A stretch of 64,000 nucleotides of DNA from Escherichia coli (lineage in GTDB: Bacteria; Pseudomonadota; Gammaproteobacteria; Enterobacterales; Enterobacteriaceae), in assembly GCF_011045215.1 (NCBI RefSeq), contig NZ_CP049201.1. One strand, written 5' to 3'. The notes below the pieces were generated by a model. That model was not told where the DNA came from. It worked only from the letters and a program-made list of their open reading frames with translations, and made no database searches. The position numbers were made by a program, and so were the translations under genes. Of this stretch, positions 2,346-50,480 are shown piece by piece (within the stretch, counting starts at the first letter, position 1; each line of letters begins with the position of its first letter).

Positions 2346-3887
<1,542 letters not shown>

Positions 3888-3955
3888 CCTTAAAGAAGCG
3901 TTCTTTGTAGTGCTCACACAGATTGTCTGATGAAAATGAGCAGTAAAACCTCTAC

Positions 3956-4032
<77 letters not shown>

Positions 4033-4074
4033 AATTTGCACGGCAAATTTGAAGAGGTTTTAACTACATGTTAT

Positions 4075-4150
4075 GGGGCTATAGCTCAGCTGGGAGAGCG
4101 CCTGCTTTGCACGCAGGAGGTCTGCGGTTCGATCCCGCATAGCTCCACCA
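4075..4150 (+). tRNA. alaV: tRNA-Ala (TGC anticodon) in the 16S-23S spacer
   Basis: GGGGCTATAGCTCAGCTGGGAGAGCGCCTGCTTTGCACGCAGGAGGTCTGCGGTTCGATCCCGCATAGCTCCACCA, 76 nt. Confidence 0.95.
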
Positions 4151-4334
4151 TCTCTGTAGTGATTAAATAAAAAATACTTCAGAGTGTACCTGCAAAGGTT
4201 CACTGCGAAGTTTTGCTCTTTAAAAATCTGGATCAAGCTGAAAATTGAAACACTGAACAACGAAAGTTGTTCGTGAGTCTCTCAAATTTTCGCAACACGA
4301 TGATGAATCGCAAGAAACATCTTCGGGTTGTGAG

Positions 4335-7236
<2,902 letters not shown>

Positions 7237-7329
7237 ACAACGCCGAAGCTGTTTTGGCGGATTGAGAGAAGATTTTCAGCCTGATACAGATTAAATCAGA
7301 ACGCAGAAGCGGTCTGATAAAACAGAATT

Positions 7330-7449
7330 TGCCTGGCGGCCGTAGCGCGGTGGTCCCACCTGACCCCATGCCGAACTCAGAAGTGAAACGCCGTAGCGCC
7401 GATGGTAGTGTGGGGTCTCCCCATGCGAGAGTAGGGAACTGCCAGGCAT
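7330..7449 (+). rRNA. rrfH: 5S ribosomal RNA
   Basis: TGCCTGGCGGCCGTAGCGCGGTGG...GGAACTGCCAGGCAT, 120 nt. Confidence 0.96.
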
Positions 7450-7501
7450 CAAATTAAGCAGTAAGCCGGTCATAAAACCGGTGGTTGTAAAAGAATTCGG
7501 T

Positions 7502-7578
7502 GGAGCGGTAGTTCAGTCGGTTAGAATACCTGCCTGTCACGCAGGGGGTCGCGGGTTCGAGTCCCGTCCGTTCCGCCA
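7502..7578 (+). tRNA. aspU: tRNA-Asp (GTC anticodon) distal to the rrn operon
   Basis: GGAGCGGTAGTTCAGTCGGTTAGAATACCTGCCTGTCACGCAGGGGGTCGCGGGTTCGAGTCCCGTCCGTTCCGCCA, 77 nt. Confidence 0.95.
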
Positions 7579-7588
7579 CTTATTAAGA

Positions 7589-7618
7589 AGCCTCGAGTTA
7601 TCGCTCGAGGTTTTTTTT
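7589..7618 (+). terminator. Rho-independent terminator of the rrn operon
   Basis: Inverted repeat CCTCGAG-N-CTCGAGG followed by a run of T residues directly after the tRNA-Asp. Confidence 0.7.
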
Positions 7619-7740
7619 CGTCTACATTTCTATTATTGCTAAAATCGCAAAAATCCTCTGCATTTTACGCTCTTTTTCCGCAACAGTCTGAAGCCCATAA
7701 TCACCTCAGTTAACGAAAATAGCATTAAAAGAGGCATATT

Positions 7741-8544
7741 ATGGCTATCCCTGCATTTGGTTTAGGTACTTTCCGTCTGAAAGACGACGTTGTTATTTCA
7801 TCTGTGAAAACGGCGCTTGAACTTGGTTATCGCGCAATTGATACCGCACAAATCTATGATAACGAAGCCGCAGTAGGTCAGGCGATTGCAGAAAGTGGCG
7901 TGCCACGTCATGAACTCTACATCACCACTAAAATCTGGATTGAAAATCTCAGCAAAGACAAATTGATCCCAAGTCTGAAAGAGAGCCTGCAAAAATTGCG
8001 TACTGATTATGTTGATCTGACGCTAATCCACTGGCCGTCACCAAACGATGAAGTCTCTGTTGAAGAGTTTATGCAGGCGCTGCTGGAAGCCAAAAAACAA
8101 GGGCTGACGCGTGAGATCGGTATTTCCAACTTCACGATCCCATTGATGGAAAAGGCGATTGCTGCTGTTGGCGCTGAAAACATCGCTACTAACCAGATTG
8201 AACTCTCTCCTTATCTGCAAAACCGTAAAGTGGTTGCCTGGGCTAAACAGCACGGCATCCATATTACTTCCTATATGACGCTGGCGTATGGTAAGGCCCT
8301 GAAAGATGAGGTTATTGCTCGTATCGCAGCTAAACACAATGCGACTCCGGCACAAGTGATTCTGGCGTGGGCTATGGGGGAAGGTTACTCAGTAATTCCT
8401 TCTTCTACTAAACGTAAAAACCTGGAAAGTAATCTTAAGGCACAAAATTTACAGCTTGATGCCGAAGATAAAAAAGCGATCGCCGCACTGGATTGCAACG
8501 ACCGCCTGGTTAGCCCGGAAGGTCTGGCTCCTGAATGGGATTAA
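7741..8544 (+). CDS. dkgB: 2,5-diketo-D-gluconate reductase B (aldo-keto reductase)
   Basis: 267-aa ORF with aldo-keto reductase character ([15 protein letters not shown]); conserved position after rrnH. Confidence 0.9.
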
Positions 8545-9455
8545 GCCTCTCTGACAGCTCCTCCGGGAGCTGTTTTTACATGCTCGCTAAGGAAATCGAT
8601 AAAAGCCCGGATGCGCGTACTTACCGCACGGTCGCTGTAATAGACTGCACTGAATGGCATTTCCACTGGCAACACTTTATCTGCCATTAACTCCACCAAT
8701 TCTCCGCGAGCGATTTCTCTGTCGATCATATAGTCGGACAAACACGCAATCCCGTTGCCACTCAGGCAAAGCTGTTTCAGTGTTTCCCCACTATTGGATG
8801 ACAAACCGTACTTCACCTCATGTAATTGTCCATCGCTACAGGCTATCGGCCAGGTATTGAGGGAAGCGGGTTCAGTGAATCCCAGGCAAACATGTTGCTT
8901 TAAATCGTCGATCGTTTCTGGCTTCCCGTAGCGGGAAATATAATCGGGGGAGGCGATAATTTTTCGATAACTGTTAAATAACGGCCTGGCACGTAAGCTG
9001 GAATCCGTTAACGTACCAGCGCGTATCGCGACATCCACTTTTCTTTCGATCAAATTAATAATCGTTTCGGAGGAGACTAGCGACAAAGTGACTTCCGGAT
9101 AGCGTTCACGGAAAGGCTTAATTAACGGCATCAGAAAGTGCAGCACCACTGGAGTTGCGGCATCGATCCGTAACAGTCCACGCGGTGTATTACGCGTCTC
9201 CATAATTTCTGATTCTGCCGCTGCCATCTCCTGCAAAATTGACTGTACGCGACGGAAATAACGCTCGCCTTCTTCCGTCAGGCTAAGTTGTCGCGTGGTC
9301 CGATTAAGCAGGCTAACGCCAAGTTTCATCTCCAGCTTTTTCACCGCCCGGCTTACCGCTGAGTTTGCTTGCCCTAATTGTTCCGCTGCCCGGCTAAAGC
9401 TGCCGCTTTCTACGACCGAAACAAAAATGGCGAGTTCTTCCGAAGTGGCTTTCAT
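8541..9455 (-). CDS. yafC: LysR-family transcriptional regulator
   Basis: 304-aa ORF with N-terminal LysR-type HTH ([36 protein letters not shown]) and a LysR substrate-binding domain; divergent or convergent neighbours as in K-12. Confidence 0.88.
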
Positions 9456-9644
9456 TTTTGCTCCTGTTGCAAAATAGAAGAGATATTTTGAATTTATTTG
9501 TCATTAAACCATCAGGATGCGTGATATGTCATCCGATTTAATGTTCTCAATAATGAGCAAAATTCTGACCGGTGTAAGCACTTGCTTACATAACAATATA
9601 CAATTGCTCGTTGAAAGAGTGAGCTAAAATCCCTATAACAGTAG

Positions 9645-10496
<852 letters not shown>

Positions 10497-10573
10497 GGTA
10501 TGTCAGGTCTGCCACAGGGCAGACCAACGTTTGGCGCTGCCCTTTTATACTCAAATAACAAAAGGACAGCGCA

Positions 10574-11344
10574 ATGACAATACAATCCCACCATGACCAT
10601 GTAGAAAAGCAGTTTAGCTCTCAAGCCAGCGAATATCTGACCAGTACCGTACATGCATCCGGACGAGATTTACAGCGCCTGGCGGTGTGTCTGGCTGATT
10701 ATCCTGATGCAAGTGTACTTGATATGGGCTGCGGAGCAGGGCATGCCAGCTTTGTCGCTGCGCAAAACGTGAGCACGGTGGTGGCGTATGACTTATCTGC
10801 CCAAATGCTGGATGTCGTGGCACAAGCTGCCGAAGTCCGGCAACTGAAAAATATCACCACCCGCCAGGGTTATGCCGAAAGTCAGCCATTTGCCGATAAC
10901 GCATTTGATATTGTTATCAGCCGTTATTCTGCCCATCACTGGCATGATGTTGGTGCAGCACTGCGTGAAGTGAACCGGATATTGAAACCTGGCGGTAGGC
11001 TGATTGTGATGGACGTAATGTCTCCGGGCCACCCAGTGCGCGACATCTGGTTACAGACGGTAGAAGCATTACGCGATACCTCTCACGTACGAAACTACGC
11101 CAGCGGTGAGTGGTTGAGGTTAATCAATGAAGCCAATCTGATAGTTGATAATTTAATTACAGATAAGTTACCGCTGGAATTTTCTTCATGGGTCGCGAGA
11201 ATGCGTACGCCAGAAGCGTTAGTAGACGCTATTCGCATTTACCAACAGAGCGCATCGACAGAGGTGAGAACGTATTTTGCCTTGCAGAATGATGGCTCTT
11301 TCACCAGTGATATCATCATGGTAGATGCACATAAAGCGGCATAA
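10574..11344 (+). CDS. yafE: SAM-dependent methyltransferase
   Basis: 256-aa ORF with methyltransferase motif I (VLDMGCGAGH); conserved position. Confidence 0.85.
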   Translation: MTIQSHHDHVEKQFSSQASEYLTSTVHASGRDLQRLAVCLADYPDASVLDMGCGAGHASFVAAQNVSTVVAYDLSAQMLDVVAQAAEVRQLKNITTRQGYAESQPFADNAFDIVISRYSAHHWHDVGAALREVNRILKPGGRLIVMDVMSPGHPVRDIWLQTVEALRDTSHVRNYASGEWLRLINEANLIVDNLITDKLPLEFSSWVARMRTPEALVDAIRIYQQSASTEVRTYFALQNDGSFTSDIIMVDAHKAA

Positions 11345-15725: not shown

Positions 15726-15802
15726 GGAGCGGTAGTTCAGTCGGTTAGAATACCTGCCTGTCACGCAGGGGGTCGCGGGTTCGAGTCCCGTCCGTTCCGC
15801 CA
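15726..15802 (+). tRNA. aspV: tRNA-Asp (GTC anticodon); island integration hotspot
   Basis: Sequence identical to the aspU copy at 7502..7578; followed by a terminator hairpin; foreign DNA begins immediately downstream. Confidence 0.95.
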
Positions 15803-36798: not shown

Positions 36799-37665
36799 CT
36801 AAGCGAGGTTCTGGTTTTCAAATTGTTCCGGACTGAGGCCGCCACACCAACTGTGCCGCCGCCACCGATTGTAATCACATTCGATATAATTAAACACCGT
36901 TGCCCGCATTATTTCCCGGCTGATAAAGTGTTCTCCATGGATACATTCCACTTTCAGCGAATGAAAGAAGCTTTCCACGCAGGCATTATCGTAGCAGCAA
37001 CCTTTTGCGCTCATACTTCCACGCAGATTATGCCGCTTCAGTTGCGCCTGATAATCTGCTGAACAGTACTGGCCTCCACGGTCCGTGTGAACGATAACGT
37101 TCCGGGGCCTCTTACGCCGCCACAGCGCCATCTGCAGGGCATCGCAGGCCAGTTGCGCCGTCATGCGTGGCGACATTGACCAGCCAATAACGGCACGTGA
37201 CCACAGGTCAATGACCACTGCCAGATACAGCCAGCCTTCATCTGTACGTAAGTACGTGATGTCTCCTGCCCACTTCTGGTTCGGGCCACTGGCGTAAAAA
37301 TCCTGCTCCAACAGATTTTCTGACACAGGCAGGCCGTGTGCGCGGTAGCTGACCGGGCTGAACTTCCGGGAGGCCTTTGCCCTCAGTCCCTGACGGCGCA
37401 GGCTTGCCGCCACGGTTTTTACGTTAAAGGGGTAACCCTGAGCACGCAGTTCATCCGTCAGGCGTGGGGCACCGTAACGCTGTTTTGACCGGGTAAAAGC
37501 CGCGAGGACAACGCTGTCGCAGTGTTGGCGGAACTGCTGACGCGTGCTTATCCTTGTCCGCCGCTGACACCACGTATACCAGCCGCTGCGGGCCACCCGG
37601 AGCACGCGGCACATTGCTTTGATGCTGAACTCAGCCTGATGTTTTTCAATAAAGACATACTTCAT
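36799..37665 (-). CDS. insF: IS3 transposase OrfB (DDE integrase-type catalytic domain)
   Basis: 288-aa ORF with DDE-domain residues (...WAGDITYL..., ...[10 protein letters not shown]...) inside the IS3 element. Confidence 0.9.
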
Positions 37666-37970
37666 TTCAGGCGCTTCGCGAAGTATGTCGCGGCCTTTTG
37701 GAGGATAGCCAGCTCTTCATCCCGTTCTGCCAGCTGGCGTTTGAGACGTGCAATCTCGGTAGACATCTCCAGTTCACGTTCAGAAGACGTCTGCTGATTT
37801 TGCTGTTTACTGCGCCAGTTGTAGAGCTGTGATTCATACAGGCTGAGTTCACGGGCTGCGGCAGTAACACCGATGCGTTCAGCAAGCTTCAGGGCTTCAC
37901 TGCGAAATTCAGGCGAATGCTGTTTACGGGGTTTTTTACTGGTTGATACTGTTTTTGTCATGTGAGTCAC
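37662..37970 (-). CDS. insE: IS3 transposase OrfA (HTH protein)
   Basis: 102-aa [55 protein letters not shown]... inside the IS3 element. Confidence 0.9.
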
Positions 37971-38042
37971 CTCTGACTGAGAGTTTACTCACTTAGCCGC
38001 GTGTCCACTATTGCTGGGTAAGATCACATCGCTATTAATATT

Positions 38043-38150
38043 TTGACGAATGATAAGGTATTCAAGGCAGGGTTAAGACGTAAGATGCGAAAAGCAGCCA
38101 TGGACAGAAACTATCTCGCGTCAGTACTTGCGGGGAACTGGCTTTCGTAA
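38043..38150 (+). pseudogene. 3'-terminal fragment of an ISAs1-family (H-repeat-associated) transposase gene
   Basis: Translates to [35 protein letters not shown], matching the conserved C-terminus of ISAs1/H-repeat transposases; truncated right next to the IS3 end. Confidence 0.75.
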
Positions 38151-38337
38151 TCTTGCCCTGATCCCGATAGCGGTCTAATTATTTATAGCACAAGTGGTTT
38201 TTCAATGAATGGGGAAGATCAAGTGAAAAATAATATTCATTAAAAATTGAATAAAATTGAGAGAAGTATATCTCTTTTTAAAAAAGATCCTATTACTTGA
38301 TAGAAGTAATGGTAATTTATGATATGTTCTTATTACA

Positions 38338-38589
38338 TTGAAGAGTATAACTCTTTCCAAAACAGAATTAACATCATCCGTTCTTAAGCAATATCGATTG
38401 GAACTTCTGAAGTATCATGTTGAACTTGTTGAGTTATTTAATAAATATTATATTGTGAATTATAATCCTCAAAGACCCTATCGTATGCATATGTTTCCTC
38501 CTGTGGATGCGGTAGATGGACTTGTGTTTGGTGAAGTGGACCTGAGTAGAATTAGAGATAATATGAATCAGATCTCAAGGAGAATATAA
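38338..38589 (+). CDS. Hypothetical small protein (83 aa), AT-rich, upstream of the PAAR gene
   Basis: ORF only; no recognised motif. Confidence 0.3.
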   Translation: MKSITLSKTELTSSVLKQYRLELLKYHVELVELFNKYYIVNYNPQRPYRMHMFPPVDAVDGLVFGEVDLSRIRDNMNQISRRI

Positions 38590-38906
38590 GAATTGGAAAG
38601 GAGCTTTCCTTTCAGGCTGCTTTAACTTCGGTAAAATACGTTCTTGAAGCACCAGATAATAAAGTCGGTAATATTGCCACTATTGAGTTTTTCATCAAGG
38701 TTAATTACGAGAATAACCCTTCTGATAAAGCTGAAGTTGAGAAGGTGCTTAATGAATCAGAACTGAAGAATGCTCTTAAGTCCAGAATTCTTGATGATAC
38801 TGTCAGGCAACACAGATGATTAAATCATCTGGATGTATTTAATGCATAAACATTTCTGAATGATACATAAAAATTGTATTTAATGTTTCCCTCCTGGAGA
38901 ATCTCT

Positions 38907-39191
38907 ATGCCCACAGCAGCCAGACTCAGCGATAAAGGCACCCAGCATGACGGTTATTATGAGACCACCATTATTGCAGGCTCCTCCACCGTCTTTATTG
39001 ATGGTATGCCCGCCGCCCGTCAGGGCGATCCGCTGACACCGCATTCCAAACCTGACCATCCCCCTCACCCCCGTAAAATCGCAGGCGGCTCTGCCACTGT
39101 CTTTATTGACGGTAAACCTGCCGCCAGAACCGGCGATGCCATTGACTGTGGCGGCGTGGTTATCGGTGGCGGCACGGTAAATATAGGCTGA
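38907..39191 (+). CDS. PAAR-domain protein (T6SS spike tip)
   Basis: 94-aa protein with PAAR repeats (DGMPAARQGDP, DGKPAARTGDAIDCGG); start placed at the internal Met preceded by GGAGA; immediately upstream of vgrG. Confidence 0.85.
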   Translation: MPTAARLSDKGTQHDGYYETTIIAGSSTVFIDGMPAARQGDPLTPHSKPDHPPHPRKIAGGSATVFIDGKPAARTGDAIDCGGVVIGGGTVNIG

Positions 39192-39211
39192 TTAATTATC
39201 AGGGAGGCTGT

Positions 39212-41611
39212 ATGCCCTCAGAAGGATTACGTTTCACGCTGTCGGTGGACGGTATCGTGGAGATGGCGACGGCGGTGGTGAGCTTCCGTCTGTACCAGCA
39301 CCACTGCACGCCGTTCATCCTGGATGTGGATATCGCCAGCGGGCTGTCTGACCTGACGGCGGAGGATTTTCTGGAGAAGAGCGCGGTGCTGACGGTCTGG
39401 CAGGGTGATATCCCGCAGCGTTACGTCAGCGGTATCGTGACGGAGGTGCAACTGGGGGAGAACAACGACTGGCAGATGCGTTATTCCCTGAGCATCAGCC
39501 CGCCGCTGTGGCGGGCAGGGTTACGGCAGAACTTCCGTATCTTCCAGCAGCAGGACATCCAGACGATATCAGCACAGCTTCTGAGAGAGAACGGAGTGAC
39601 GGCATGGATGCCGCTGTTTTATGAAGACCATCCGGCGCGGGAGTTCTGTGTGCAGTACGGGGAAAGCGACCTGGCGTTTCTGGCGCGGCTGTGGGCGGAG
39701 GAGGGGATTTTCTTCTTTGAGCGGTTTGCGGCGGACAGTCCGGAGCAGAAGCTGACGCTGTGCGACGATGTGGCGGGGCTGTCACAGGCGGGAGAGCTTC
39801 CGTTTAACCCGGACACATCGGCAGGAGCGGAGACGGAGTGTCTCAGTACGTTCCGTTATGAGGCGCATGTCCGCCCGTCGTCGGTGCAGAGTCAGGATTA
39901 CACGTTTAAGGTGCCGGACTGGCCGGGGATGTATGAGCAGCAGGGTGAGAACCTGAACGGACAGCTGGCGCAGTACGAGATATTTGATTATCCGGGAAGG
40001 TTCAAGGATGAGCAGCACGGCAAGGATTTCACGCTGTACCAGATGGACAGCCTGCGCAGTGATGCGGAAAAGGCCACAGGGCAGAGTAATTCACCGAAGC
40101 TGTGGCCGGGAACGCGGTTTACGCTGACGGGGCATCCGCAGAAGATGCTGAACCGTGAATGGCAGGTGGTACAGAGCATACTGTCAGGAAGCCAGCCGCA
40201 GGCGCTGCACGGCAGCCAGGGGAGGGGAACCACGCTGGGAAATCAGTTAGAGGTGATACCGGCAGACCGGACGTGGCGTCCACGGCTGCAAAGCAAACCG
40301 AAGGTGGACGGGCCGCAGAGTGCCATTGTGACCGGGCCGAAGGGTGAGGAGATATTCTGCGACGAACATGGCCGGGTACGGGTGAAGTTCCACTGGGACC
40401 GTTATCACGGGATGACGGAGGCGAGTTCATGCTGGGTGCGGGTATCGCAGGCGTGGGCGGGGCCGGGGTTCGGTAACCTGGCGATACCGCGGGTGGGCCA
40501 GGAGGTGATTGTTGACTTCCTGAACGGCGACCCGGACCAGCCCATCGTCACGGGACGGACCTACCATGAAGATAACCGCTCCCCGGGCGACCTGCCGGGA
40601 ACGAAGACGCAGATGACGATACGGTCGAAGACCTATAAAGAAAGCGGATTTAACGAGTTGCGGTTTGAAGACGCCACCAGTAATGAGCAGGTGTATATCC
40701 ACGCGCAGAAGAACATGGATACGGAGGTGCTCAACGACCGGACAACGGATGTGAAGCATGACCATACGGAGACCATTGGTAACGACCAGAAGATAACGGT
40801 GGTGAAGGGGCAGACGGTTGAGGTCGGGACCAGAAAAGAAGGAGGCCACGACCAGAGTATCACGGTGGCGAACGACCGGAGCATAACGGTACGTAACGAC
40901 CAGACGCTGAAGGTGACAAATGACCGGACGGTGAGCGTGAGTCACGATGACGGTCTGTACGTCAGAAATGACCGTAGGGTGACGGTGAAAGGGAAGCAGG
41001 AGCATAAGACGACGGGTAACCACATCAGCCTGGTGGAGGGGAAGCACAGCCTGGAGGTGAAGGGGGACCTGGCGGAGAAGGTGAGTGGCGCGCTGGGGAT
41101 AGAAGTGGACGGGGATATCGTGCTGGAGAGCAGCAGCCGGATAAGCCTGAAGGTGGGTGGCTCGTTTATCGTCATTCAGCCGGGCGGAGTGGATATTGCC
41201 GGGCCGAAGATAAACCTGAACGGTGGGGGCAGTGCGGGGACACCGGTGGGGACGATGCAGCCGGCGGTGCTGGAGGCTCCGGAGGATGAGAGCAGTGATG
41301 ATGGCAGTGATGACTCCGGAGAGGATAGTGGCAATCCCGCAGGGAGTGACGGAGGAGGTGATGGCGGTGACGATGAAGATGATCCTGAAAAATATACCCT
41401 CCAGTTCCATTTTACGGACGATGACGGGATACCGTATTCAGAGACGCAGTATATTGCCTTTTTTGAGGATGGCACACAGACGCGTGGTGAAACAGACAGA
41501 GAGGGATATACAGAAATATTTTATACAGATACAGCACAGGAAATTAAAGTCCAATTGTTATTTTCGGATGCTTTTTATATTGAGCCGGAGGGGCATTATG
41601 GCAGGGAATAA
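39212..41611 (+). CDS. vgrG: Type VI secretion spike protein VgrG (799 aa) with an acidic linker and a small C-terminal extension domain
   Basis: Gp27-like N-terminal region, gp5-like OB-fold and beta-helix (WAGPGFGNLAIPRVGQEVIVDFLNGDPDQPIVTGRTYHEDNR; repeated ...NDRT/ITV... units), then an Asp/Glu/Gly/Ser-rich linker and a roughly 70-aa C-terminal domain. Confidence 0.92.
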   Translation: MPSEGLRFTLSVDGIVEMATAVVSFRLYQHHCTPFILDVDIASGLSDLTAEDFLEKSAVLTVWQGDIPQRYVSGIVTEVQLGENNDWQMRYSLSISPPLWRAGLRQNFRIFQQQDIQTISAQLLRENGVTAWMPLFYEDHPAREFCVQYGESDLAFLARLWAEEGIFFFERFAADSPEQKLTLCDDVAGLSQAGELPFNPDTSAGAETECLSTFRYEAHVRPSSVQSQDYTFKVPDWPGMYEQQGENLNGQLAQYEIFDYPGRFKDEQHGKDFTLYQMDSLRSDAEKATGQSNSPKLWPGTRFTLTGHPQKMLNREWQVVQSILSGSQPQALHGSQGRGTTLGNQLEVIPADRTWRPRLQSKPKVDGPQSAIVTGPKGEEIFCDEHGRVRVKFHWDRYHGMTEASSCWVRVSQAWAGPGFGNLAIPRVGQEVIVDFLNGDPDQPIVTGRTYHEDNRSPGDLPGTKTQMTIRSKTYKESGFNELRFEDATSNEQVYIHAQKNMDTEVLNDRTTDVKHDHTETIGNDQKITVVKGQTVEVGTRKEGGHDQSITVANDRSITVRNDQTLKVTNDRTVSVSHDDGLYVRNDRRVTVKGKQEHKTTGNHISLVEGKHSLEVKGDLAEKVSGALGIEVDGDIVLESSSRISLKVGGSFIVIQPGGVDIAGPKINLNGGGSAGTPVGTMQPAVLEAPEDESSDDGSDDSGEDSGNPAGSDGGGDGGDDEDDPEKYTLQFHFTDDDGIPYSETQYIAFFEDGTQTRGETDREGYTEIFYTDTAQEIKVQLLFSDAFYIEPEGHYGRE

Positions 41612-42401
41612 TAATACTAGTGGGACTTCACAACCCGAGTCGCAAGTATGTGTAGTACCGCAAAAAATTACAAATAAATTTAAAATAATGATGAGTAAGG
41701 CTTGTAAAGCACAGAAAATGGTTTTATTGAAAAGAGCAGATGATATTATGTCATGGGAGGGGGAACAACAACGAGATTTTATTAAAGTTTTTGGCCTTAA
41801 AGGCGAGGACATTATAAAAATCAGAAAGGTTGGGGAAGATACTGGGAAACGAATGCAAGCGAGACTATTCATAATGGATGGCATCAGACAAATAATGACG
41901 ATTGCAAATGGTTTGACGATCGAAAGCTATAAAGATTATACGAACTGCAATGAATTTGCTGCTTTTATTAGTCCACATCTTGATCCTCCTTACATTGTAA
42001 ATATCGGAGCGCATTTTGAATACAGACATGGTATAAAACAGTCGGTTACAGGTAGAGACTCTCATGTAAGTACACTTTGCCATGAAATGTCCCATATATT
42101 TTGGTATTGGGGTGACAATCAAAAAGGTGGTATGTGGACTCAGGATTATACGGGTATTAATAAGTTCGCAACAAGTAATAAGGATGAAGTTAGCTATGAG
42201 AAACATGTTTCAGTGGCTAATGATCTGGTTACATTGCGTAAAGATCAGTTATTTGAGAATGCATATAATGTTGAAAGATATTTTTATATAAAATTAAATG
42301 ATGAAGATATTGAAGCTCAAGATGAGAATATGTTAGCAAAAAAAGTAGAGGATAAAATAAAAGAGATAGAAAAATGTTTTGATGAGTTGATGGGGAAATA
42401 A
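41598..42401 (+). CDS. Putative T6SS effector: uncharacterised protein with an HExxH zinc-metallopeptidase-like motif (267 aa)
   Basis: Start ATG lies within the last 14 nt of vgrG (translational coupling); contains CHEMSHIFWYWGDNQKGGMWTQDYTG (HExxH followed by conserved Asp residues); abrupt drop in GC content relative to vgrG; followed by a secreted-protein gene. Confidence 0.6.
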   Translation: MAGNNNTSGTSQPESQVCVVPQKITNKFKIMMSKACKAQKMVLLKRADDIMSWEGEQQRDFIKVFGLKGEDIIKIRKVGEDTGKRMQARLFIMDGIRQIMTIANGLTIESYKDYTNCNEFAAFISPHLDPPYIVNIGAHFEYRHGIKQSVTGRDSHVSTLCHEMSHIFWYWGDNQKGGMWTQDYTGINKFATSNKDEVSYEKHVSVANDLVTLRKDQLFENAYNVERYFYIKLNDEDIEAQDENMLAKKVEDKIKEIEKCFDELMGK

Positions 42402-42402
42402 G

Positions 42403-43242
42403 ATGAAGAGGTTGGCTTTCTATAATCTAAATTATGTTGTACTGATGGTTTTTTTTCTTTGTTTTTTGCCATTATCTATTGCAATTGCAATAGATAATGA
42501 GAATCTTTTTGTAAAAAAATACAGATTCGGTTTTGAACGAAGAAATGACAATGGGAAACCAATTATTTATCTTAGCCATAATTTAGCGCCAGAGGAAAAT
42601 ATAAGTAATGAATTAACAAATGATGTTGTTGTTAAATTGGTGGTTAAGCCACATGCTGAAAATATTTTAGCTACTATAACTTTTTATAACAGTAGTACTA
42701 AATCGTATTTTCTCCCCAGAATATATTATCCAAAGAACTTCCAAAAAGGAAATGGAGATGTATTTGATGCTTTGTGTGATGACGAATTCTTGATTACATC
42801 AGGAAATATTAGCTTAGACTATCTAGGAGGCTTTTGTCCCTTTGAGCTTGATTTGAATTTGAGCCGATGGGTGGAAATTACGGCAGGTAAAAAAATATCT
42901 TTTGATGTAAAATTGAATGATATGCATTCATTTCTCCCCAGTTTAAATAATTATCATATAAAAACATTAAACTACAAACTTGTTAGGAGAAAATGGTTTG
43001 TATTAAAATCAATTAATGAAACATTCCTCTCTATTTTGATGAAAAGATACTCATGTAATGAATATGATTTTAGAGCTATATCATTTAGTGGAGAGGGATG
43101 TGATAATTATGAATTTGATAAAAATACGTTTTTTTTTGTTAATCAAATATTAGATAAAGATGATGAGCAACATTCTGTTCATATTAGGTCTAATGAATTT
43201 TCCATCAATATCGATGGAAGCTTGGTAAAGCAACCTTATTGA
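42403..43242 (+). CDS. Putative cognate immunity protein (279 aa, N-terminal signal peptide or membrane anchor)
   Basis: Begins 1 nt after the effector stop; hydrophobic N-terminus (VVLMVFFLCFLPLSIAIAI) suggests periplasmic localisation; AT-rich like the effector gene. Confidence 0.5.
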   Translation: MKRLAFYNLNYVVLMVFFLCFLPLSIAIAIDNENLFVKKYRFGFERRNDNGKPIIYLSHNLAPEENISNELTNDVVVKLVVKPHAENILATITFYNSSTKSYFLPRIYYPKNFQKGNGDVFDALCDDEFLITSGNISLDYLGGFCPFELDLNLSRWVEITAGKKISFDVKLNDMHSFLPSLNNYHIKTLNYKLVRRKWFVLKSINETFLSILMKRYSCNEYDFRAISFSGEGCDNYEFDKNTFFFVNQILDKDDEQHSVHIRSNEFSINIDGSLVKQPY

Positions 43243-43304
43243 TTAAAATGTATCGCAGGTTTTATTTTCTGTAATGCTGGTGCATGTGCGTAAATATTTC
43301 TTAA

Positions 43305-43730
43305 GAGCCGGAAACACCTCTTCCGCCTTTATCGACGATAAACCTACCGCCAGAACCGGTGATGCCATTGACTGCGGTGGCGTGGTTAAAGGTGGAGGGC
43401 GATGTGGTGCTGGAGAGCAGCAGCCGGATAAGCCTGAAGGTGGGCGGCTCGTTTGTGGTCATCCATTCAGGGGGCGTGGACATCGTCGGGCCGAAAATCA
43501 ATCTCAATAGCGGCGGTAGTCCGGGAACGCCGGTGCCGACGCTGCAACCGGCGGTTCTGAAAGCGCTGGCAGATGATAAAAGTTTAGCGGCTGAGCAAAA
43601 TGATAGTAATGCATCGTCCGATCAGAATGATAACAACGATGAGGGTGAGGAAGCGCCAGAAAAATCGGTGTGTAAGGAGTGCCTGAAAAGGGCGCAAGAA
43701 GCCGCCGCCGTTTTTGCGCCTCGTGGATAA
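43305..43730 (+). pseudogene. PAAR-vgrG deletion-fusion remnant (3' end of a PAAR gene joined to the 3' end of a second vgrG)
   Basis: 43309..43392 closely matches the PAAR 3' end at 39092..39175 (...FIDDKPTARTGDAIDCGGVV...); from about 43393 the sequence matches vgrG at about 41110..41245 (VLESSSRISLKVGGSF.V.....GGVDI.GPKINLN.GG) and then continues into a different C-terminal tail. Confidence 0.8.
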
Positions 43731-43736
43731 GGGAGA

Positions 43737-44506
43737 ATGACAATGATAACAGTATCGCCACACGCTACCGATCAAGACAAATATATTATCTGGCTGAAGC
43801 AAGCTGAATCATTCTGTTCTGCCGCTGGTTTGGATTACATAGATGTGCTTGTTGACCAGGCTGGAACCGACCAACCTTTGCAAAATGATATGCTTCATCT
43901 GTCGCCAGCCATTCACTGGTATGCCCTGTTTGAAGGAACGCCTGAAGCTGAGACGATGGAGTATTCCCCTGTAGTGTTACGCCTGTACTTTGCGCTCAGT
44001 AGCCATCGCAAATTTCTGGCACAACTGATGGCGTCATTTGCTGATACGCCGCGTCTTACTTTGTTGATATCCCCTCTTACATTCGACCTGCTGGGCGGCA
44101 TCTTCAGGTATTGTCACAGGTTCAGTGGGAAGAACAGACCGGATTGCTGCGTTACTATGATAATCGGGTGTTCCCTTTACTGTTCACACATGTTTTGACT
44201 AACGAGCAGCAGGCGACATTTACTGATATTGCGTTGTTCTGGAGCTGGTTAGACCGTGATGGTGAGATTAACTGGAAATCAGGAAGTTTTTCACCAGAAC
44301 GCAGGCTTACTGACAACCCGGAGATGAATCGGGTGGATGATGTACAGGTGGGATTGATGGGCTGTATCTGCGACGCTGAAGTCCTGATGAAGGAGAAAGC
44401 AGTCAGTGAACTCAGTCAGGAAAGCTATTTTGCCCACTGTCTTGATATTGCTTTCAGGGCCAATGACGCGAAATATTTCGGAGCTTTGCGGGACTTCGAA
44501 GGATAA
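43737..44506 (+). pseudogene. T6SS adaptor/chaperone-like gene (DUF4123-type, Tap/Tec family), split across two overlapping reading frames
   Basis: Two overlapping ORFs (43737..44198 and 44111..44506) together span about 256 codons, in the adaptor position between a vgrG 3' end and a DUF2235 effector gene; family assignment is by position and recalled sequence character. Confidence 0.5.
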
Positions 44507-44819
44507 TATTGTGGTGATGTACGGGGAGATTTATCTGTTTAAAAGTCCGTAGCTGTTAATATCAAGAGATAATCGTGAAATAAACGGAAAATCAAGCTCG
44601 ACATGTAATGGTAGTATCCATCATGTTGCATTTGTGTTCGATCGTAATGTCAGTTCACTTGGCTGCAATATATTTTGCGTAATATCATCAATGCTCTGTC
44701 GATATTCCAATGTGTGACAATCGAAAGATATGCATTTTATTTGCTTCTATGTCAAAACTTTATTGTCGTAGAAACAATACCCATCAATTAAAATCTCTCA
44801 AAGTAAAAGAACCAGCAAC

Positions 44820-45362
44820 ATGTCCAGCAAAATAAGAAATGGAATGAATATAACAAAAGTAGTTAAAGGCTGTCTGGTATTAATTTTGATGGTGATTTCT
44901 GGTTGCTCAGCAGATAATTACGACGATTATACTGCAGGTGATCTCCGGGCAATAAATCATATTAAAGGTATCAGTATTAATTGGTTCACCGTAAATGGTT
45001 ATCGGGTCCATGGTTTGGGCGGTGGATATTGCTGCATAATGTTACCAAAGAAGTGGCATTCTGGATTAAAAGCCCGGATCGAGTGGGAAGTAGACCCGAC
45101 CCCCCTTGAACCTATTGCAATGAAAAAAGAAGGTTTTGGCTATGAAGAAGATGCTTATGCTAAACATGCTGCAAATTATCAAAAATATAAAGTAATTGTT
45201 GACATCCCGGAATACGGCGCTGAACGTTGTGGCCTGACCGTTCATTTTCTGCCGTGTAATCAGATTAAAGTGACAACCGTCTGCGAGGGCTATGGCACAC
45301 CGAATTATCCTATCAAAGAACCCCGCGAGATGAAGGAACCTGCAACATGTCCAGCAAAATAA
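44820..45362 (+). CDS. Lipoprotein (180 aa), candidate Tle1-associated immunity or accessory protein (DUF3304-like)
   Basis: Signal peptide with lipobox (LILMVISGCSADN); directly upstream of and overlapping the Tle1-like gene. Confidence 0.55.
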   Translation: MSSKIRNGMNITKVVKGCLVLILMVISGCSADNYDDYTAGDLRAINHIKGISINWFTVNGYRVHGLGGGYCCIMLPKKWHSGLKARIEWEVDPTPLEPIAMKKEGFGYEEDAYAKHAANYQKYKVIVDIPEYGAERCGLTVHFLPCNQIKVTTVCEGYGTPNYPIKEPREMKEPATCPAK

Positions 45363-47440
45363 GTGGTCTGGCTTTTCCGTGTTATGCCCCCCCGGTGTTC
45401 CCTGAAGATGGGCGATTAATATTATCTGAAGCGCAGGTAAACGCGAACTACCTAAAACAAATCAATAAAACAGAAGAGCACAAAACCAACTGTAGTAAAC
45501 AGGCTGGATTTAGAATTGGCTTTACGTGTAATCAAAGTATGCATATTAGTCTGTTTTTTGATGGTACAAATAATAATGAATATAATGACACTCCTGGACA
45601 CCCAACCAATATTGCCAAACTGTTTCATACGACCTATCAGAACGCAGAAGAACAGGGATATTTTAACTACTATATACCGGGTGTAGGCACACCATTTCCC
45701 AAGATAGGTGAAATGGATTACAGCAACAGCGGGCTGGAGTTCGCTACTGGTGGTGAAGATCGAATTAATTGGGCATTATTACGCCTCGTGGATGCCCTGA
45801 GCTATTCCATTGACCCTTCCCATAAGCGACTGGATGATAATGTGGCAAAAGAGCACATTCCTCTTATGCGCGCTCCCTGGCCTATGACTGGTGAAGTGAA
45901 TCGTCGCAATGTGATTAACCCCTACCTGGAAAAATTACAGGGACTGTTAGAGCAAGCCAGTCCGCGCCTGCTAAACGTAAAGCTGTTTATCTACGGATTT
46001 TCCCGTGGCGCAGCGGAAGCACGAACTTTTGTTAACTGGTTGACTCAGTTAGCTTGCCCGCAGGAGCAACAGGTGATGCTGGCCGGGTTAGCTGTCAGTA
46101 TTGAGTTTTTGGGGCTGCTGGATACCGTAGCTTCTGTGGGGGCGGCGCATGTTTTACCGGGCGCTGCCGGTCATATGGGATGGGCCGATAGTACTCAGCA
46201 ACTCCCTGATGAGAGGCAGTTTCCCGGCCTGATTAAATGCTGCCGCCACTTCGTTGCCGCGCATGAGCAGCGGCTGTGCTTTCCGCTGGATTCAATCCGT
46301 CGTCCAGACGGAAATTATCCTTTAAATGCAGAGGAAATTATCTATCCGGGGATGCACTCTGATGTCGGTGGTGGCTATCCCGTTCGCGATCAGGGGAAGT
46401 CCTGTGGTGACTCAGGCGAAATTCTTTCTCAGATAGCACTGCATGATATGTATCTTGCTGCATTTGATTCAGGAGCACCACTTGCTGTTTATTCTAAATT
46501 TGTTACTCCATTAATAAAAGGTGTGTCGCCTCTGCGAATTATGAGTCCTTCTAGCGTAAAGGAATTTACGATTGCTAATTCATTAACAAAACGCTTCAAC
46601 ATCTGGCGACAAACGCTGCTGAACACCACCTTGCAGGGTACAGAAGAAATGATTGATACGAGGGAAGGTTATCACTCCTATCAACTTGCCCAGGTTCTTG
46701 AAAGCGCAATTAGCGATCAGATCGGCTGGATCACCGCCTGGCGTATCGGTCGCTATGCGAATAACAGCCTTCTTGTGCAACCTTTTTATATTAAGGCGCC
46801 ACAGCTGGATAAAGATGGACTTGATAAAGAGGCTAAAGCGCGTAAAGAACAAATGGAAAATATTGAAAAAGAGCGGGCGAACAAGCAGAAAGGGAATGGC
46901 ACACTTGATGAAAGTAATCAGGGCATTCCTATCCTTGACCCAACCAATGCTCAGTATCAGTTGCGAGAGGCAGCCCGAGAATTTCAGAGCGATTATAAAG
47001 GATGGACGCGCGATATTAACGGCAGCGTCATGGAGAAAGCCATTCAGATTCTTGTGGATGTCATTCCTAAATATCCGGTGTATCTGATTAATGGCGATGA
47101 TGAAGCAAAAGAATATCAGCAAATTAAGGCTATGGGAGACGGACTCTATCCACAATTTTTTATTGATTCACTGGGAACGGGAACGCGTACTCAGCCATGC
47201 GCTGAATTACTGGCCCTCTATGATGACCAGGTTCACGACTCCCGCGCCTGGTTTATGCAAAGTTCGCTGGGTGGACGTGAACCCTGGGGCGGTTATTTTC
47301 GCTACCGCATGATTTACTTCGGTGATGAGGCTAATAAAGAGCTGAAGCTAATCTCTGCAGATGGCAAAGTTGTTGGCGATCAGCCCACATCCAACCGGGT
47401 CATTTATTGGATGGAATCGAAAACGGTGAGCCGAGGTTAA
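45347..47440 (+). CDS. Tle1-family T6SS phospholipase effector (DUF2235 alpha/beta-hydrolase, 697 aa)
   Basis: DUF2235 hallmark ISLFFDGTNNNEYND...; nucleophile elbow GxSxG (IYGFSRGAAEAR); vgrG-adaptor-effector gene order. Confidence 0.75.
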   Translation: MSSKISGLAFPCYAPPVFPEDGRLILSEAQVNANYLKQINKTEEHKTNCSKQAGFRIGFTCNQSMHISLFFDGTNNNEYNDTPGHPTNIAKLFHTTYQNAEEQGYFNYYIPGVGTPFPKIGEMDYSNSGLEFATGGEDRINWALLRLVDALSYSIDPSHKRLDDNVAKEHIPLMRAPWPMTGEVNRRNVINPYLEKLQGLLEQASPRLLNVKLFIYGFSRGAAEARTFVNWLTQLACPQEQQVMLAGLAVSIEFLGLLDTVASVGAAHVLPGAAGHMGWADSTQQLPDERQFPGLIKCCRHFVAAHEQRLCFPLDSIRRPDGNYPLNAEEIIYPGMHSDVGGGYPVRDQGKSCGDSGEILSQIALHDMYLAAFDSGAPLAVYSKFVTPLIKGVSPLRIMSPSSVKEFTIANSLTKRFNIWRQTLLNTTLQGTEEMIDTREGYHSYQLAQVLESAISDQIGWITAWRIGRYANNSLLVQPFYIKAPQLDKDGLDKEAKARKEQMENIEKERANKQKGNGTLDESNQGIPILDPTNAQYQLREAAREFQSDYKGWTRDINGSVMEKAIQILVDVIPKYPVYLINGDDEAKEYQQIKAMGDGLYPQFFIDSLGTGTRTQPCAELLALYDDQVHDSRAWFMQSSLGGREPWGGYFRYRMIYFGDEANKELKLISADGKVVGDQPTSNRVIYWMESKTVSRG

Positions 47441-47697: not shown

Positions 47698-50480
<2,783 letters not shown>

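What the first reader, a model, noticed from the sequence alone, without database searches (positions are those of the whole stretch)
43305..43730. PAAR-vgrG deletion-fusion remnant marks an effector-cassette displacement
43309..43392 closely matches the 3' end of the PAAR gene (39092..39175), and is fused directly to sequence matching the vgrG region around 41110..41245 before diverging into a different C-terminal tail (..LKALADDKSLAAEQNDSNASSDQNDNNDEGEEAPEKSVCKECLKRAQEAAAVFAPRG). This looks like the scar of an older PAAR-vgrG copy, most of which was deleted, whose tail was matched to the downstream adaptor/Tle1 cassette. The implication is that a newer PAAR-vgrG-HExxH cassette was inserted upstream by recombination within conserved PAAR/vgrG sequence.
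Basis: seen in the sequence. Interest (0 to 1): 0.6.

Follow-up and report, generated by a model that had tools for sequence, protein, structure and literature searches.

The report
Scar of a displaced T6SS spike gene
A 430-base leftover of a PAAR gene end joined to a VgrG spike gene end sits in front of an E. coli type VI secretion toxin module (Tla1-Tli1a-Tle1), marking where that module lost its own spike gene when another toxin cassette took the upstream place; it is a real but ordinary kind of evolutionary scar.

Summary
Window 43327-43398 matches the PAAR 3' end (87.5%, E=3e-20). Window 43384-43576 matches the upstream vgrG (78%, E=2e-41). The two pieces meet out of frame in a 15-nt imperfect microhomology.

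The vgrG piece encodes residues 630-743 of a 743-aa VgrG, at 96% identity. That VgrG sits intact directly upstream of tla1-tli1a-tle1 in about 55 complete E. coli genomes. Strain N96 carries the intact form of the whole arrangement: vgrG-M35-imm-PAAR-vgrG-tla1.

The same two junctions occur in all 19 other scar-bearing loci examined, so the scar arose once.

Its historical inference is only partly supported:
- Most scar carriers have hcp, not PAAR, in front of the upstream vgrG.
- The window's own PAAR and vgrG 5' end are a later graft, 100% identical to an ISAs1-flanked orphan unit.
- Both scar junctions are non-homologous.

The Tle1 unit that lost its VgrG shows decay: tla1 is frameshifted here and tle1 is disrupted in many relatives.

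This is a known phenomenon, effector-cassette displacement. NCBI's annotation pipeline (PGAP) already marks the vgrG part as a pseudogene. Interest is low to moderate.

The parts
38026..38160 (.). ISAs1-family IS fragment. It marks the left edge of the grafted orphan PAAR-vgrG segment. An IS3 copy (36799-37970) lies just upstream, and no hcp or T6SS core genes follow aspV in this window.
   Evidence: Window 38026-40917 matches ET350 locus L006 14001-16891, and ISAs1 transposase is annotated under the match.
38907..39191 (+). Intact PAAR gene (94 aa), of the ET350 orphan-island allele.
   Evidence: NCBIfam NF033420, 160 bits against a cutoff of 124. 100% identical to ET350.
39212..41611 (+). 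vgrG (799 aa) with a C-terminal extension. It is a mosaic: the 5' part to about 39550 is ET350-type (100%), and the part from about 40650 on is A30/GPT24-02-type (97-100%).
   Evidence: TIGR03361, 597 bits. Sliding-window identities.
41598..42401 (+). M35-like HExxH metallopeptidase effector (267 aa). Its start overlaps the vgrG stop by 14 nt.
   Evidence: PGAP names the homologues 'peptidase M35'. Pfam Aspzincin_M35 is only weak, E=0.0014. GC is 0.31.
42403..43242 (+). Putative cognate immunity protein (279 aa). No family match.
   Evidence: No Pfam or NCBIfam hit. 32% identical to the gene following M35' in N96. Homologues follow M35 in Salmonella Moero.
43243..43304 (.). AT-rich spacer (GC 0.31) belonging to the M35-imm block. 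Junction J1 lies at its right end.
   Evidence: No homology to any PAAR or to the N96 spacer.
43305..43398 (+). PAAR remnant, corresponding to nt 173-266 of a 285-nt PAAR gene. It lacks both the 5' 172 nt and the last 19 nt.
   Evidence: 87.5% identical to the window's PAAR over 72 nt, and 41 of 42 nt identical to the N96 PAAR.
43384..43398 (.). Junction J2, a 15-nt stretch that matches both the PAAR end and vgrG (imperfect microhomology, ..GGTTA|AAGGTGG..). The two pieces join out of frame.
   Evidence: Overlapping BLAST matches. Alignment. Short-word BLAST end points at 43388 and 43387.
43387..43730 (+). vgrG 3' remnant, covering codons 630-743 of a 743-aa VgrG: the last beta-prism turns, an acidic linker, and the C-terminal helix/strand tail. 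Stop codon at 43728-43730.
   Evidence: 96% identical to FDAARGOS_144 VgrG residues 630-743. PGAP pseudogene in relatives, 'VgrG incomplete; missing N-terminus'. No family hit on its own.
43737..44506 (+). tla1 (DUF4123 adaptor/chaperone of Tle1). It is a pseudogene here because of a 1-nt deletion after 44092.
   Evidence: NCBIfam NF053803 hits are split over two ORFs. The indel was located against strain A30.
44820..45362 (+). tli1a (DUF3304 immunity lipoprotein), intact. There is one copy here against 1-3 copies in relatives.
   Evidence: NF053804, 199 bits against a cutoff of 110..
45347..47440 (+). tle1-like phospholipase effector (697 aa), intact here.
   Evidence: PGAP product names and Pfam T6SS_Tle1-like_cat/_C in homologues. 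ORF check.
48276..50229 (-). IS21-family element (istA 49121-50143, istB 48342-49124) inserted into the ISAs1 pseudogene that closes the array.
   Evidence: Homology to the other loci breaks at 48275 and resumes at 50230. ORFs.

Best explanation
**What it is.** Window 43305-43730 is a non-functional scar. It is the remains of the PAAR-vgrG gene pair that once headed the last effector unit (tla1-tli1a-tle1) of a stacked cassette array. The array sits at the hcp-distal end of the E. coli T6SS-1 locus, between aspV and yafV-ivy-fadE.

**How the locus is built.** Units of the form [PAAR]-vgrG-(adaptor)-effector-immunity are stacked head to tail. The conserved vgrG core gives homology for recombination. 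Each VgrG's C-terminal tail specifies the effector unit encoded after it.

**What happened here.** A vgrG(C-terminal extension)-M35-immunity unit occupies the upstream position. The downstream PAAR-vgrG was reduced by illegitimate joins.
- J1 joins the AT-rich end of the M35-imm block to PAAR nt 173.
- J2 joins the PAAR 3' end to vgrG codon 630 at a 15-nt microhomology. It removes about 1.9 kb and leaves the pieces out of frame.

**What survives.** Only the last 114 codons of VgrG remain. They include the tail that, by analogy with P. aeruginosa VgrG4a, docks Tla1-Tle1. The native ribosome-binding region of tla1 also remains.

**Consequence.** No full-length spike carries that tail, so Tle1 has lost its carrier, and the unit is decaying in many carriers.

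**Shown:** the homologies, the junctions, the intact counterparts, the single origin, and the lesions in tla1 and tle1.

**Inferred:** the order of events, the loss of Tle1 delivery, and relaxed selection.
For: 1. The pieces are significantly homologous to PAAR and vgrG.
2. The vgrG piece equals residues 630-743 of the 743-aa VgrG at 96% identity. That VgrG lies immediately upstream of tla1 in about 55 of 5426 complete E. coli genomes: 66 genomes have at least 80% coverage, minus 11 scar carriers. Eight were inspected in detail.
3. An intact PAAR-vgrG-tla1 lies downstream of a homologous but diverged vgrG-M35'-imm' unit in N96. The M35 proteins are 24% identical, the immunity proteins 32%, and the VgrG C-terminal extension is conserved.
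4. Longer arrays with repeated PAAR-vgrG unit heads occur in MFDS1022581, GPT24-02 and Salmonella Moero.
5. Both J1 and J2 are present in all 19 other scar-bearing loci examined, from complete genomes, drafts and gut metagenomes. Four alleles differ by only 7 SNPs in 503 nt.
6. This M35-imm allele is found only together with the scar, in 12 of 12 complete genomes.
7. The M35-imm-scar-tla1 block is 99.2-99.8% identical among carriers. The flanking yafV-ivy-fadE differ by 1.6-1.8%. The block has therefore moved between lineages.
8. The frames differ, the ORF has no family hit, and PGAP calls it a pseudogene.
9. Decay of the unit:
   - The window's tla1 has a 1-nt deletion.
   - tle1 carries a 23-nt deletion in 8 loci, a 1-nt deletion near codon 16 in 5 loci, and an extra 1-nt insertion in 1 locus.
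   - IS600 and IS1 have inserted in FDAARGOS_943.
   - In all 8 inspected genomes with an intact vgrG743, tla1 and tle1 are intact.
   - A naive Fisher test gives p=3e-4. The samples are not independent, so this is only indicative.
10. The tail-adaptor logic rests on PMC13133936.
Against: - No intermediate was found: neither J1 alone with an intact vgrG, nor J2 alone with an intact PAAR 5' end. The two-step history is therefore inferred.
- The scar ORF (122-123 codons) is open in all alleles, so expression cannot be excluded from sequence alone.
- tla1-tli1a-tle1 are all intact in A30, FDAARGOS_944 and GPT24-02. In FDAARGOS_943, tla1 and tle1 remain open despite the IS600 and IS1 insertions. 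Loss of function of the unit is therefore not universal.
- The 1-nt tle1 deletion near codon 16 may still allow a downstream start. PGAP annotates a 686-aa product there.
- The decay comparison uses clonally related genomes. The control genomes represent only two haplotypes.
- Whether VgrG799 can load Tle1 was not tested.
Confidence: 0.85

Rival explanations
1. One-step homology-facilitated illegitimate recombination. Under this model there was never an intact second PAAR-vgrG in this lineage. The resident locus was hcp-vgrG743-tla1, as in FDAARGOS_144. Incoming DNA of the form (vgrG core)-C-terminal extension-M35-imm-truncated PAAR anchored by homology in the vgrG core. Its right end, inside PAAR, joined illegitimately to resident vgrG codon 630. 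The PAAR piece would then be donor DNA and the vgrG piece resident DNA.
For: - Most carriers have hcp directly before vgrG799. The first ~1.9 kb of vgrG799 is 89-99% identical per 100-nt window (mostly 92-98%) to the resident-type vgrG743.
- The scar's vgrG piece is collinear with the FDAARGOS_144-type vgrG right from the junction.
- This M35-imm allele always co-occurs with the scar, 12 of 12.
- J2 is a microhomology joint.
- This mechanism has been proposed for V. cholerae T6SS arrays (PMC5361080).
Against: - It still needs a separate event for J1, the 5' truncation of PAAR.
- N96, MFDS1022581 and GPT24-02 show that intact PAAR-vgrG heads do exist at internal positions of this array.
- No donor carrying imm-spacer-truncated PAAR was found.
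- vgrG genes at this locus are too mosaic to locate a left crossover.
Confidence: 0.25
2. The scar is kept as a silent 'tail cassette'. Under this model, RecA recombination occurs between the 193-nt direct repeats (41097-41289 and 43384-43576, 2.29 kb apart). That would delete M35-imm and rebuild a full-length vgrG carrying the Tla1-docking tail. The loaded effector would switch from M35 to Tle1, as happens with orphan Rhs or CdiA toxin modules.
For: - The repeats are in direct orientation. They share a 38-nt perfect run ending at 43444 and 41157. From my own knowledge, this is longer than the ~25-nt minimum for RecA.
- FDAARGOS_144-type vgrG genes (15 complete genomes) have 799-type sequence up to this stretch and the Tla1-type tail after it. 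Crossovers at this site have therefore occurred in the population.
- PMC5361080 cites a precedent of this kind, orphan-module activation in Salmonella (Koskiniemi et al.).
Against: - No complete genome has a tla1 region at least 99% identical to the scar haplotype but lacking M35-imm, so there is no recent revertant.
- The FDAARGOS_144-type vgrG is only 89-98% identical to vgrG799 upstream of the site.
- Frequent inactivation of tle1 and tla1 in carriers argues against selection to keep the unit usable.
- Overall repeat identity is only 78%.
Confidence: 0.1
3. The 123-codon ORF 43359-43730 is expressed as a free VgrG tail peptide. Under this model it binds Tla1-Tle1 as a decoy or stabiliser, or joins the spike in trans.
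For: - The ORF is open in all alleles checked.
- It retains the tail that docks the adaptor in the P. aeruginosa homologue.
Against: - There is no Shine-Dalgarno-like sequence before the GTG/ATG at 43359/43362.
- No promoter-like signal exceeds the shuffle expectation.
- Three of the five SNPs in the ORF are non-synonymous.
- The supposed partners are themselves often inactivated.
- The piece lacks the gp27 and gp5 parts needed to trimerise as a spike.
Confidence: 0.03

Closest known systems
Sequential displacement of T6SS effector-immunity modules in Vibrio cholerae (Kirchberger et al. 2017, PMC5361080)
   Same: - A new module takes the upstream position in the variable 3' region of a T6SS cluster.
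- The older module is pushed downstream, and 3' remnants and old immunity genes are retained.
- Homologous recombination in conserved parts combines with illegitimate joins.
   Different: - Here the displaced and truncated gene is the carrier pair (PAAR-vgrG), not the effector.
- The old adaptor, immunity gene and effector are all still present and are decaying secondarily.
- The organism and locus differ: E. coli T6SS-1 at aspV/yafV.
Recombination within vgrG that swaps the C-terminal tail together with downstream adaptor/effector genes (agrobacteria, Wu et al. 2021, PMC8546570)
   Same: - The conserved vgrG core acts as the recombination substrate.
- The VgrG tail, adaptor and effector are inherited as a linked set.
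- vgrG genes are mosaic.
   Different: That work describes clean swaps inferred from phylogeny and synteny networks. Here a physical scar with defined junctions is left in the genome.
P. aeruginosa vgrG4a-tla1-tli1a-tli1b-tle1 island (PA3294-PA3290; PMC13133936)
   Same: - The unit architecture is the same: VgrG with a short C-terminal extension, a DUF4123 adaptor, DUF3304 immunity and a Tle1 phospholipase.
- NCBIfam Tla1 and Tli1a models hit the window's genes.
   Different: - In the window the VgrG is reduced to its last 114 codons and tla1 is frameshifted.
- Interaction of the E. coli tail with Tla1 was not tested here.
Orphan 3' toxin/immunity modules of Rhs and CdiA loci
   Same: There is a string of displaced 3' ends downstream of an active gene that shares a conserved 5' part. 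Reactivation by recombination is possible in principle.
   Different: - No YD-repeat or CdiA protein is involved.
- The retained piece specifies cargo loading, not a toxin domain.
- Reactivation is not shown here.

Membership tests
VgrG/TssI spike gene | gp27-like and gp5-like domains (TIGR03361 / TIGR01646) | tested here: not met
   Scar ORF 43359-43730 has no NCBIfam hit. It aligns only to residues 630-743 of the 743-aa VgrG. It is a fragment, not a gene.
VgrG/TssI spike gene | Sequence continuity with the 3' end of bona fide vgrG genes | tested here: met
   96% protein identity to FDAARGOS_144 VgrG residues 630-743. 97-98% DNA identity to about 55 intact genes.
T6SS PAAR protein gene | Complete PAAR domain (NF033420, 94 positions) | tested here: not met
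   Only nt 173-266 of 285 are present. Both the start and the stop are missing.
Effector-cassette displacement scar (V. cholerae / Rhs type) | A truncated 3' piece of an older gene lies downstream of a newer module whose head gene shares the conserved part | tested here: met
   vgrG799-M35-imm lies upstream, and the scar shares 193 nt of the vgrG core at 78%.
Effector-cassette displacement scar (V. cholerae / Rhs type) | Junctions are not explained by homologous crossover alone (illegitimate or microhomology joins) | tested here: met
   J1 joins an AT-rich spacer to PAAR nt 173. J2 is a 15-nt imperfect microhomology.
Effector-cassette displacement scar (V. cholerae / Rhs type) | The old immunity gene is retained | tested here: met
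   tli1a is intact, 199 bits against a cutoff of 110. It is retained in nearly all carriers.
Effector-cassette displacement scar (V. cholerae / Rhs type) | The new module arrived after the old one (direction of events) | tested here: inconclusive
   - No intermediates were found.
- vgrG genes are too mosaic to order the events.
- The low GC of M35-imm (0.31 against 0.58) is typical of such cargo and does not date it.
Tla1-Tli1a-Tle1 unit (P. aeruginosa vgrG4a island type) | DUF4123 adaptor, DUF3304 immunity and a Tle1-like phospholipase encoded after a VgrG with a short C-terminal extension | tested here: met
   NF053803 and NF053804 hits. Pfam DUF4123, DUF3304 and T6SS_Tle1-like_cat/_C in identical relatives. 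Same gene order as in PMC13133936.
Tla1-Tli1a-Tle1 unit (P. aeruginosa vgrG4a island type) | The VgrG tail physically docks Tla1/Tle1 | not testable with these tools
   This is known only for P. aeruginosa. Testing it here needs a two-hybrid assay, co-purification, or a complex structure prediction.

The most novel reading that the evidence does not exclude
The scar may not be inert. It could be a stored VgrG tail cassette. Recombination between the 193-nt direct repeats, which include a 38-nt perfect run, would excise M35-imm and rebuild a full-length VgrG carrying the Tla1-docking tail. That would switch the strain's deliverable toxin from the M35 peptidase to Tle1. It would be a programmed-looking effector switch, analogous to the activation of orphan Rhs toxins.
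Probability: 0.1. Interest if true: 0.55.

Novelty: new member of a known kind. Interest (0 to 1): 0.25.

Why it matters
- It gives a clean, junction-level example in E. coli of how T6SS cargo units are stacked and how a unit loses its carrier.
- It shows that the unit of exchange is [PAAR]-vgrG-(adaptor)-effector-immunity.
- It shows that the vgrG core is the recombination substrate.
- Once the cognate VgrG tail is no longer on a full spike, the adaptor and effector tend to decay while immunity persists.
- Practically, a tle1/tla1 gene count overestimates the deliverable arsenal of such strains.
- The unannotated PAAR fragment can be added to the pseudogene annotation.
- It does not change current understanding of T6SS evolution.

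Tried and rejected
- **Chance similarity or assembly artefact.** Rejected. The E-values are 3e-20 and 2e-41, and identical junctions occur in 19 independent loci.
- **In-frame PAAR-VgrG fusion protein.** Rejected. The frames differ.
- **Recent duplication of the window's own PAAR-vgrG.** Rejected. Identity is only 78-88%, whereas other strains' genes match at 96-98%.
- **Deletion between the two internal PAAR repeats as the cause of J1.** Rejected. The sequence upstream of 43305 has no PAAR similarity.
- **Search for the cassette's native downstream context.**
  - A scan of GTDB species representatives with the immunity protein found nothing.
  - The large protein search found only 4 clusters.
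  - Salmonella Moero shows M35-imm followed after three small genes by PAAR fragments and another vgrG-M35 unit. This is supportive but not a donor.
- **Exact-match scans for J1.** Scans of metagenome and genome contigs found nothing.
- **Draft and metagenome contexts of the immunity protein.** All carry both junctions, so there are no intermediates.
- **Promoter and terminator scan of 41500-45500.** Nothing exceeded the shuffle expectation.
- **Context of the upstream island in strain PapRG-06-5.** Not informative for the scar.
Full report
**1. Checking the observation**

A blastn of 43243-43760 against the whole 64-kb window gave two significant matches besides itself.
- 43327-43398 matches 39101-39172: 87.5% over 72 nt, E=3e-20.
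- 43384-43576 matches 41097-41289: 78.2% over 193 nt, E=2e-41.
- Every other hit had E>=0.09.

The first target is the 3' end of an intact PAAR gene at 38907-39191 (NF033420, 160 bits). The second is the end of the beta-prism of a 799-aa VgrG at 39212-41611 (TIGR03361, 597 bits).

Three further points emerged.
- The two matches overlap by 15 nt (43384-43398). This stretch resembles both parents (..GGCGTGGTTA|AAGGTGGA..), which makes it a microhomology junction, J2.
- The PAAR frame and the vgrG frame differ, so there is no fusion protein.
- The PAAR piece is also cut at its 5' side. It covers nt 173-266 of a 285-nt gene and abuts a 62-nt AT-rich spacer after the preceding gene, forming junction J1.

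**2. Location and neighbours**

The window runs from rrnH, dnaQ and aspV (tRNA-Asp at 15726-15802), through an island, to yafV-ivy-fadE. This is the chromosomal site of the E. coli T6SS-1 cluster.

The gene order around the finding is as follows.
- IS3
- an ISAs1 fragment
- PAAR
- vgrG799
- an M35-like HExxH peptidase
- a 279-aa putative immunity protein
- the scar
- tla1 (DUF4123, frameshifted by a 1-nt deletion after 44092)
- tli1a (DUF3304)
- tle1 (697 aa)
- an ISAs1 pseudogene interrupted by an IS21-family element

No hcp or T6SS core genes lie in the window.

**3. Related genomes**

In about 55 of 5426 complete E. coli genomes the locus reads hcp-vgrG(743 aa)-tla1-tli1a(x2-3)-tle1. The scar's vgrG piece is 97-98% identical in DNA to the 3' end of that vgrG. 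It encodes residues 630-743 at 96% identity. It therefore derives from the VgrG that normally heads the Tle1 unit, not from the window's vgrG799 (78%).

Twelve complete genomes carry the same scar at 99.2-99.7% identity. All 19 additional scar-bearing loci examined have both J1 and J2. These loci come from complete genomes, drafts and human-gut metagenome contigs. Four alleles differ by 7 SNPs in 503 nt. The scar therefore arose once.

The window-type M35-imm allele never occurs without the scar in complete genomes, 12 of 12.

The M35-imm-scar-tla1 block is more conserved among carriers (99.2-99.8%) than the adjacent core genes yafV-ivy-fadE (98.2-98.4%). The tle1 alleles downstream range from 92.5 to 99.8%. 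The block has therefore moved between lineages by recombination.

**4. The intact counterpart exists**

Strain N96 has hcp-vgrG(770)-M35'-imm'-PAAR-vgrG(744, one internal stop)-tla1-tli1a x3-tle1. Its first unit is a diverged homologue of the window's.
- The M35 proteins are 24% identical.
- The immunity proteins are 32% identical.
- The VgrG proteins are 80% identical, with the same C-terminal extension.

Other arrays show the same head-to-tail stacking.
- MFDS1022581 carries a longer array with further PAAR-vgrG-Tae4 and PAAR-M23 units.
- GPT24-02 has hcp-vgrG652-DUF4123-effector-immunity-PAAR-vgrG799-M35-imm-scar-tla1....
- In Salmonella Moero, an M35-imm pair (65% and 52% identical) is followed by PAAR fragments, a vgrG and another M35 unit.

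The locus is therefore an array of [PAAR]-vgrG-(adaptor)-effector-immunity units. The scar occupies the position of a unit head.

**5.

*The upstream PAAR was not part of the original event.*
- Ten of the 11 complete scar carriers examined have hcp, not PAAR, directly in front of vgrG799.
- The window's PAAR and the first ~340 nt of its vgrG are 100% identical to an ISAs1-flanked orphan PAAR-vgrG in strain ET350, at the yncG-pptA island.
- The same segment is only 52-84% identical to the other carriers over that part of vgrG, and its PAAR is absent from the hcp-type carriers. From about 40650 onward the gene is A30-type.
- The window's vgrG is therefore a mosaic made by a later crossover in the conserved core. 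That event also accounts for the missing hcp and core genes.
- GPT24-02 does have a PAAR before vgrG799, but of another allele, 74-83% identical.

*The direction of events cannot be read.*
- In GPT24-02 the two vgrG genes share 92-100% identity per 100-nt window (mostly 96-100%) over the first 1.4 kb.
- The hcp-vgrG799 form and the three-unit form can therefore interconvert by homologous recombination in either direction.

*Neither junction is a homologous crossover.*
- J1 has no homology on its left side.
- J2 is a microhomology joint.

*What remains plausible.* Homologous recombination in the vgrG core is abundantly evident and plausibly anchored one end of the insertion. The scar itself needed illegitimate joining.

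Two histories fit the data.
- The first is stepwise deletion within an N96-like tandem array.
- The second is one-step homology-facilitated illegitimate recombination into an hcp-vgrG743-tla1 resident, plus a separate event for J1.

No intermediates were found.

**6. How it works now**

In P. aeruginosa, the last ~20 residues of VgrG4a dock the DUF4123 adaptor Tla1 and Tle1. The island has the same architecture: vgrG4a-tla1-tli1a-tli1b-tle1 (PMC13133936).

By inference, the E. coli tail (..EKSVCKECLKRAQEAAAVFAPRG) is the loading site for the downstream unit. In the scar it is no longer attached to a spike.

The remnant ORF is probably not expressed.
- It has no visible ribosome-binding site.
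- It has no family signal.
- No promoter or terminator signal nearby exceeds chance.
- PGAP marks it as a pseudogene.

The scar does preserve the native vgrG stop and the ribosome-binding site of tla1 (..TAAGGGAGAATGACAATG).

Decay of the unit in scar carriers is consistent with a lost carrier.
- The window's tla1 is frameshifted.
- tle1 has a 23-nt deletion in 8 loci.
- tle1 has a 1-nt deletion near codon 16 in 5 loci. This may still allow a downstream start.
- One locus has an extra 1-nt insertion in tle1.
- IS600 and IS1 have inserted in FDAARGOS_943.
- Eight inspected genomes with an intact vgrG743 all have intact tla1 and tle1.
- tli1a is retained almost everywhere.

A naive Fisher test gives p=3e-4. 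The genomes are related and the controls represent only two haplotypes, so this is suggestive only.

**7. Comparison with known systems**

Displacement of T6SS modules that leaves 3' remnants and orphan immunity genes is described for V. cholerae (PMC5361080). Swapping of the vgrG tail together with downstream genes by recombination inside vgrG is described for agrobacteria (PMC8546570).

This case belongs to that kind. Its particular feature is that the truncated gene is the carrier pair (PAAR-vgrG) rather than the effector, and both junctions are defined.

**8. The most novel reading not excluded**

The scar and vgrG799 are direct repeats, 193 nt long, with a 38-nt perfect run, 2.29 kb apart. 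Recombination between them would delete M35-imm and rebuild a VgrG with the Tla1-docking tail.

FDAARGOS_144-type vgrG genes have exactly such a crossover pattern. However, they are not recent derivatives. No recent revertant exists among complete genomes. The frequent inactivation of tle1 and tla1 also argues against maintained utility.

**Verdict**

This is a new member of a known kind, of low to moderate interest.

Noticed in passing
window 38026-41611: The window's first vgrG is a mosaic. The ISAs1 fragment, PAAR and vgrG 5' end (to about 39550) are 100% identical to an orphan PAAR-vgrG unit of strain ET350 at the yncG-pptA island. The 3' part is the T6SS-1-locus vgrG799 allele. The crossover lies in the conserved core. 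It coincides with the absence of hcp and all T6SS-1 core genes between aspV and this array, and an IS3 lies at 36799-37970.
   Followed up: yes
window 43737-44506: tla1 (the DUF4123 adaptor of Tle1) is a pseudogene in this strain because of a 1-nt deletion after 44092. tli1a and tle1 remain intact.
   Followed up: yes
L020-L027 (tle1 homologue; equivalent to window 46314) and L002, L013-L015, L017 (equivalent to about 45393): Two recurrent tle1 lesions occur among scar-bearing relatives. One is a 23-nt deletion that splits the gene into 330- and 362-aa ORFs. The other is a 1-nt deletion near codon 16. L020 and L021 also show a T6SS-1 core reduced to fragments, with a truncated tssM and a 5'-truncated vgrG.
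   Followed up: partly
window 48276-50229: A 1,954-bp IS21-family element (istA and istB on the minus strand) is inserted into the ISAs1 pseudogene that closes the cassette array. Relatives lack this insertion.
   Followed up: partly
window 41354-42401: VgrG799 carries a ~100-aa C-terminal extension (YTLQFHFTDDDGIPYSET...) that is conserved with the N96 first VgrG. It is followed, with a 14-nt overlap, by a weakly M35-like HExxH protein (Pfam E=0.0014) and an unclassifiable 279-aa partner. The effector and immunity roles are assumed from position only.
   Followed up: partly
window 44806-45363 vs L001 10522-12006, L007 11417-13025: The tli1a (DUF3304) copy number varies from 1 to 3 between strains, and one copy is often frameshifted. 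The window has a single copy.
   Followed up: no
L010 3522-3711 (Salmonella enterica serovar Moero): Fragmented PAAR pieces lie between an M35-imm unit and the next vgrG-M35 unit. This suggests that PAAR decay at internal unit heads is recurrent in such arrays.
   Followed up: no
L019 (E. coli GPT24-02) 2716-10996: Two vgrG genes, 6 kb apart in direct orientation, share 92-100% identity per 100-nt window (mostly 96-100%) over 1.4 kb. This is a ready substrate for deletion of the intervening DUF4123-effector-immunity-PAAR unit.
   Followed up: partly
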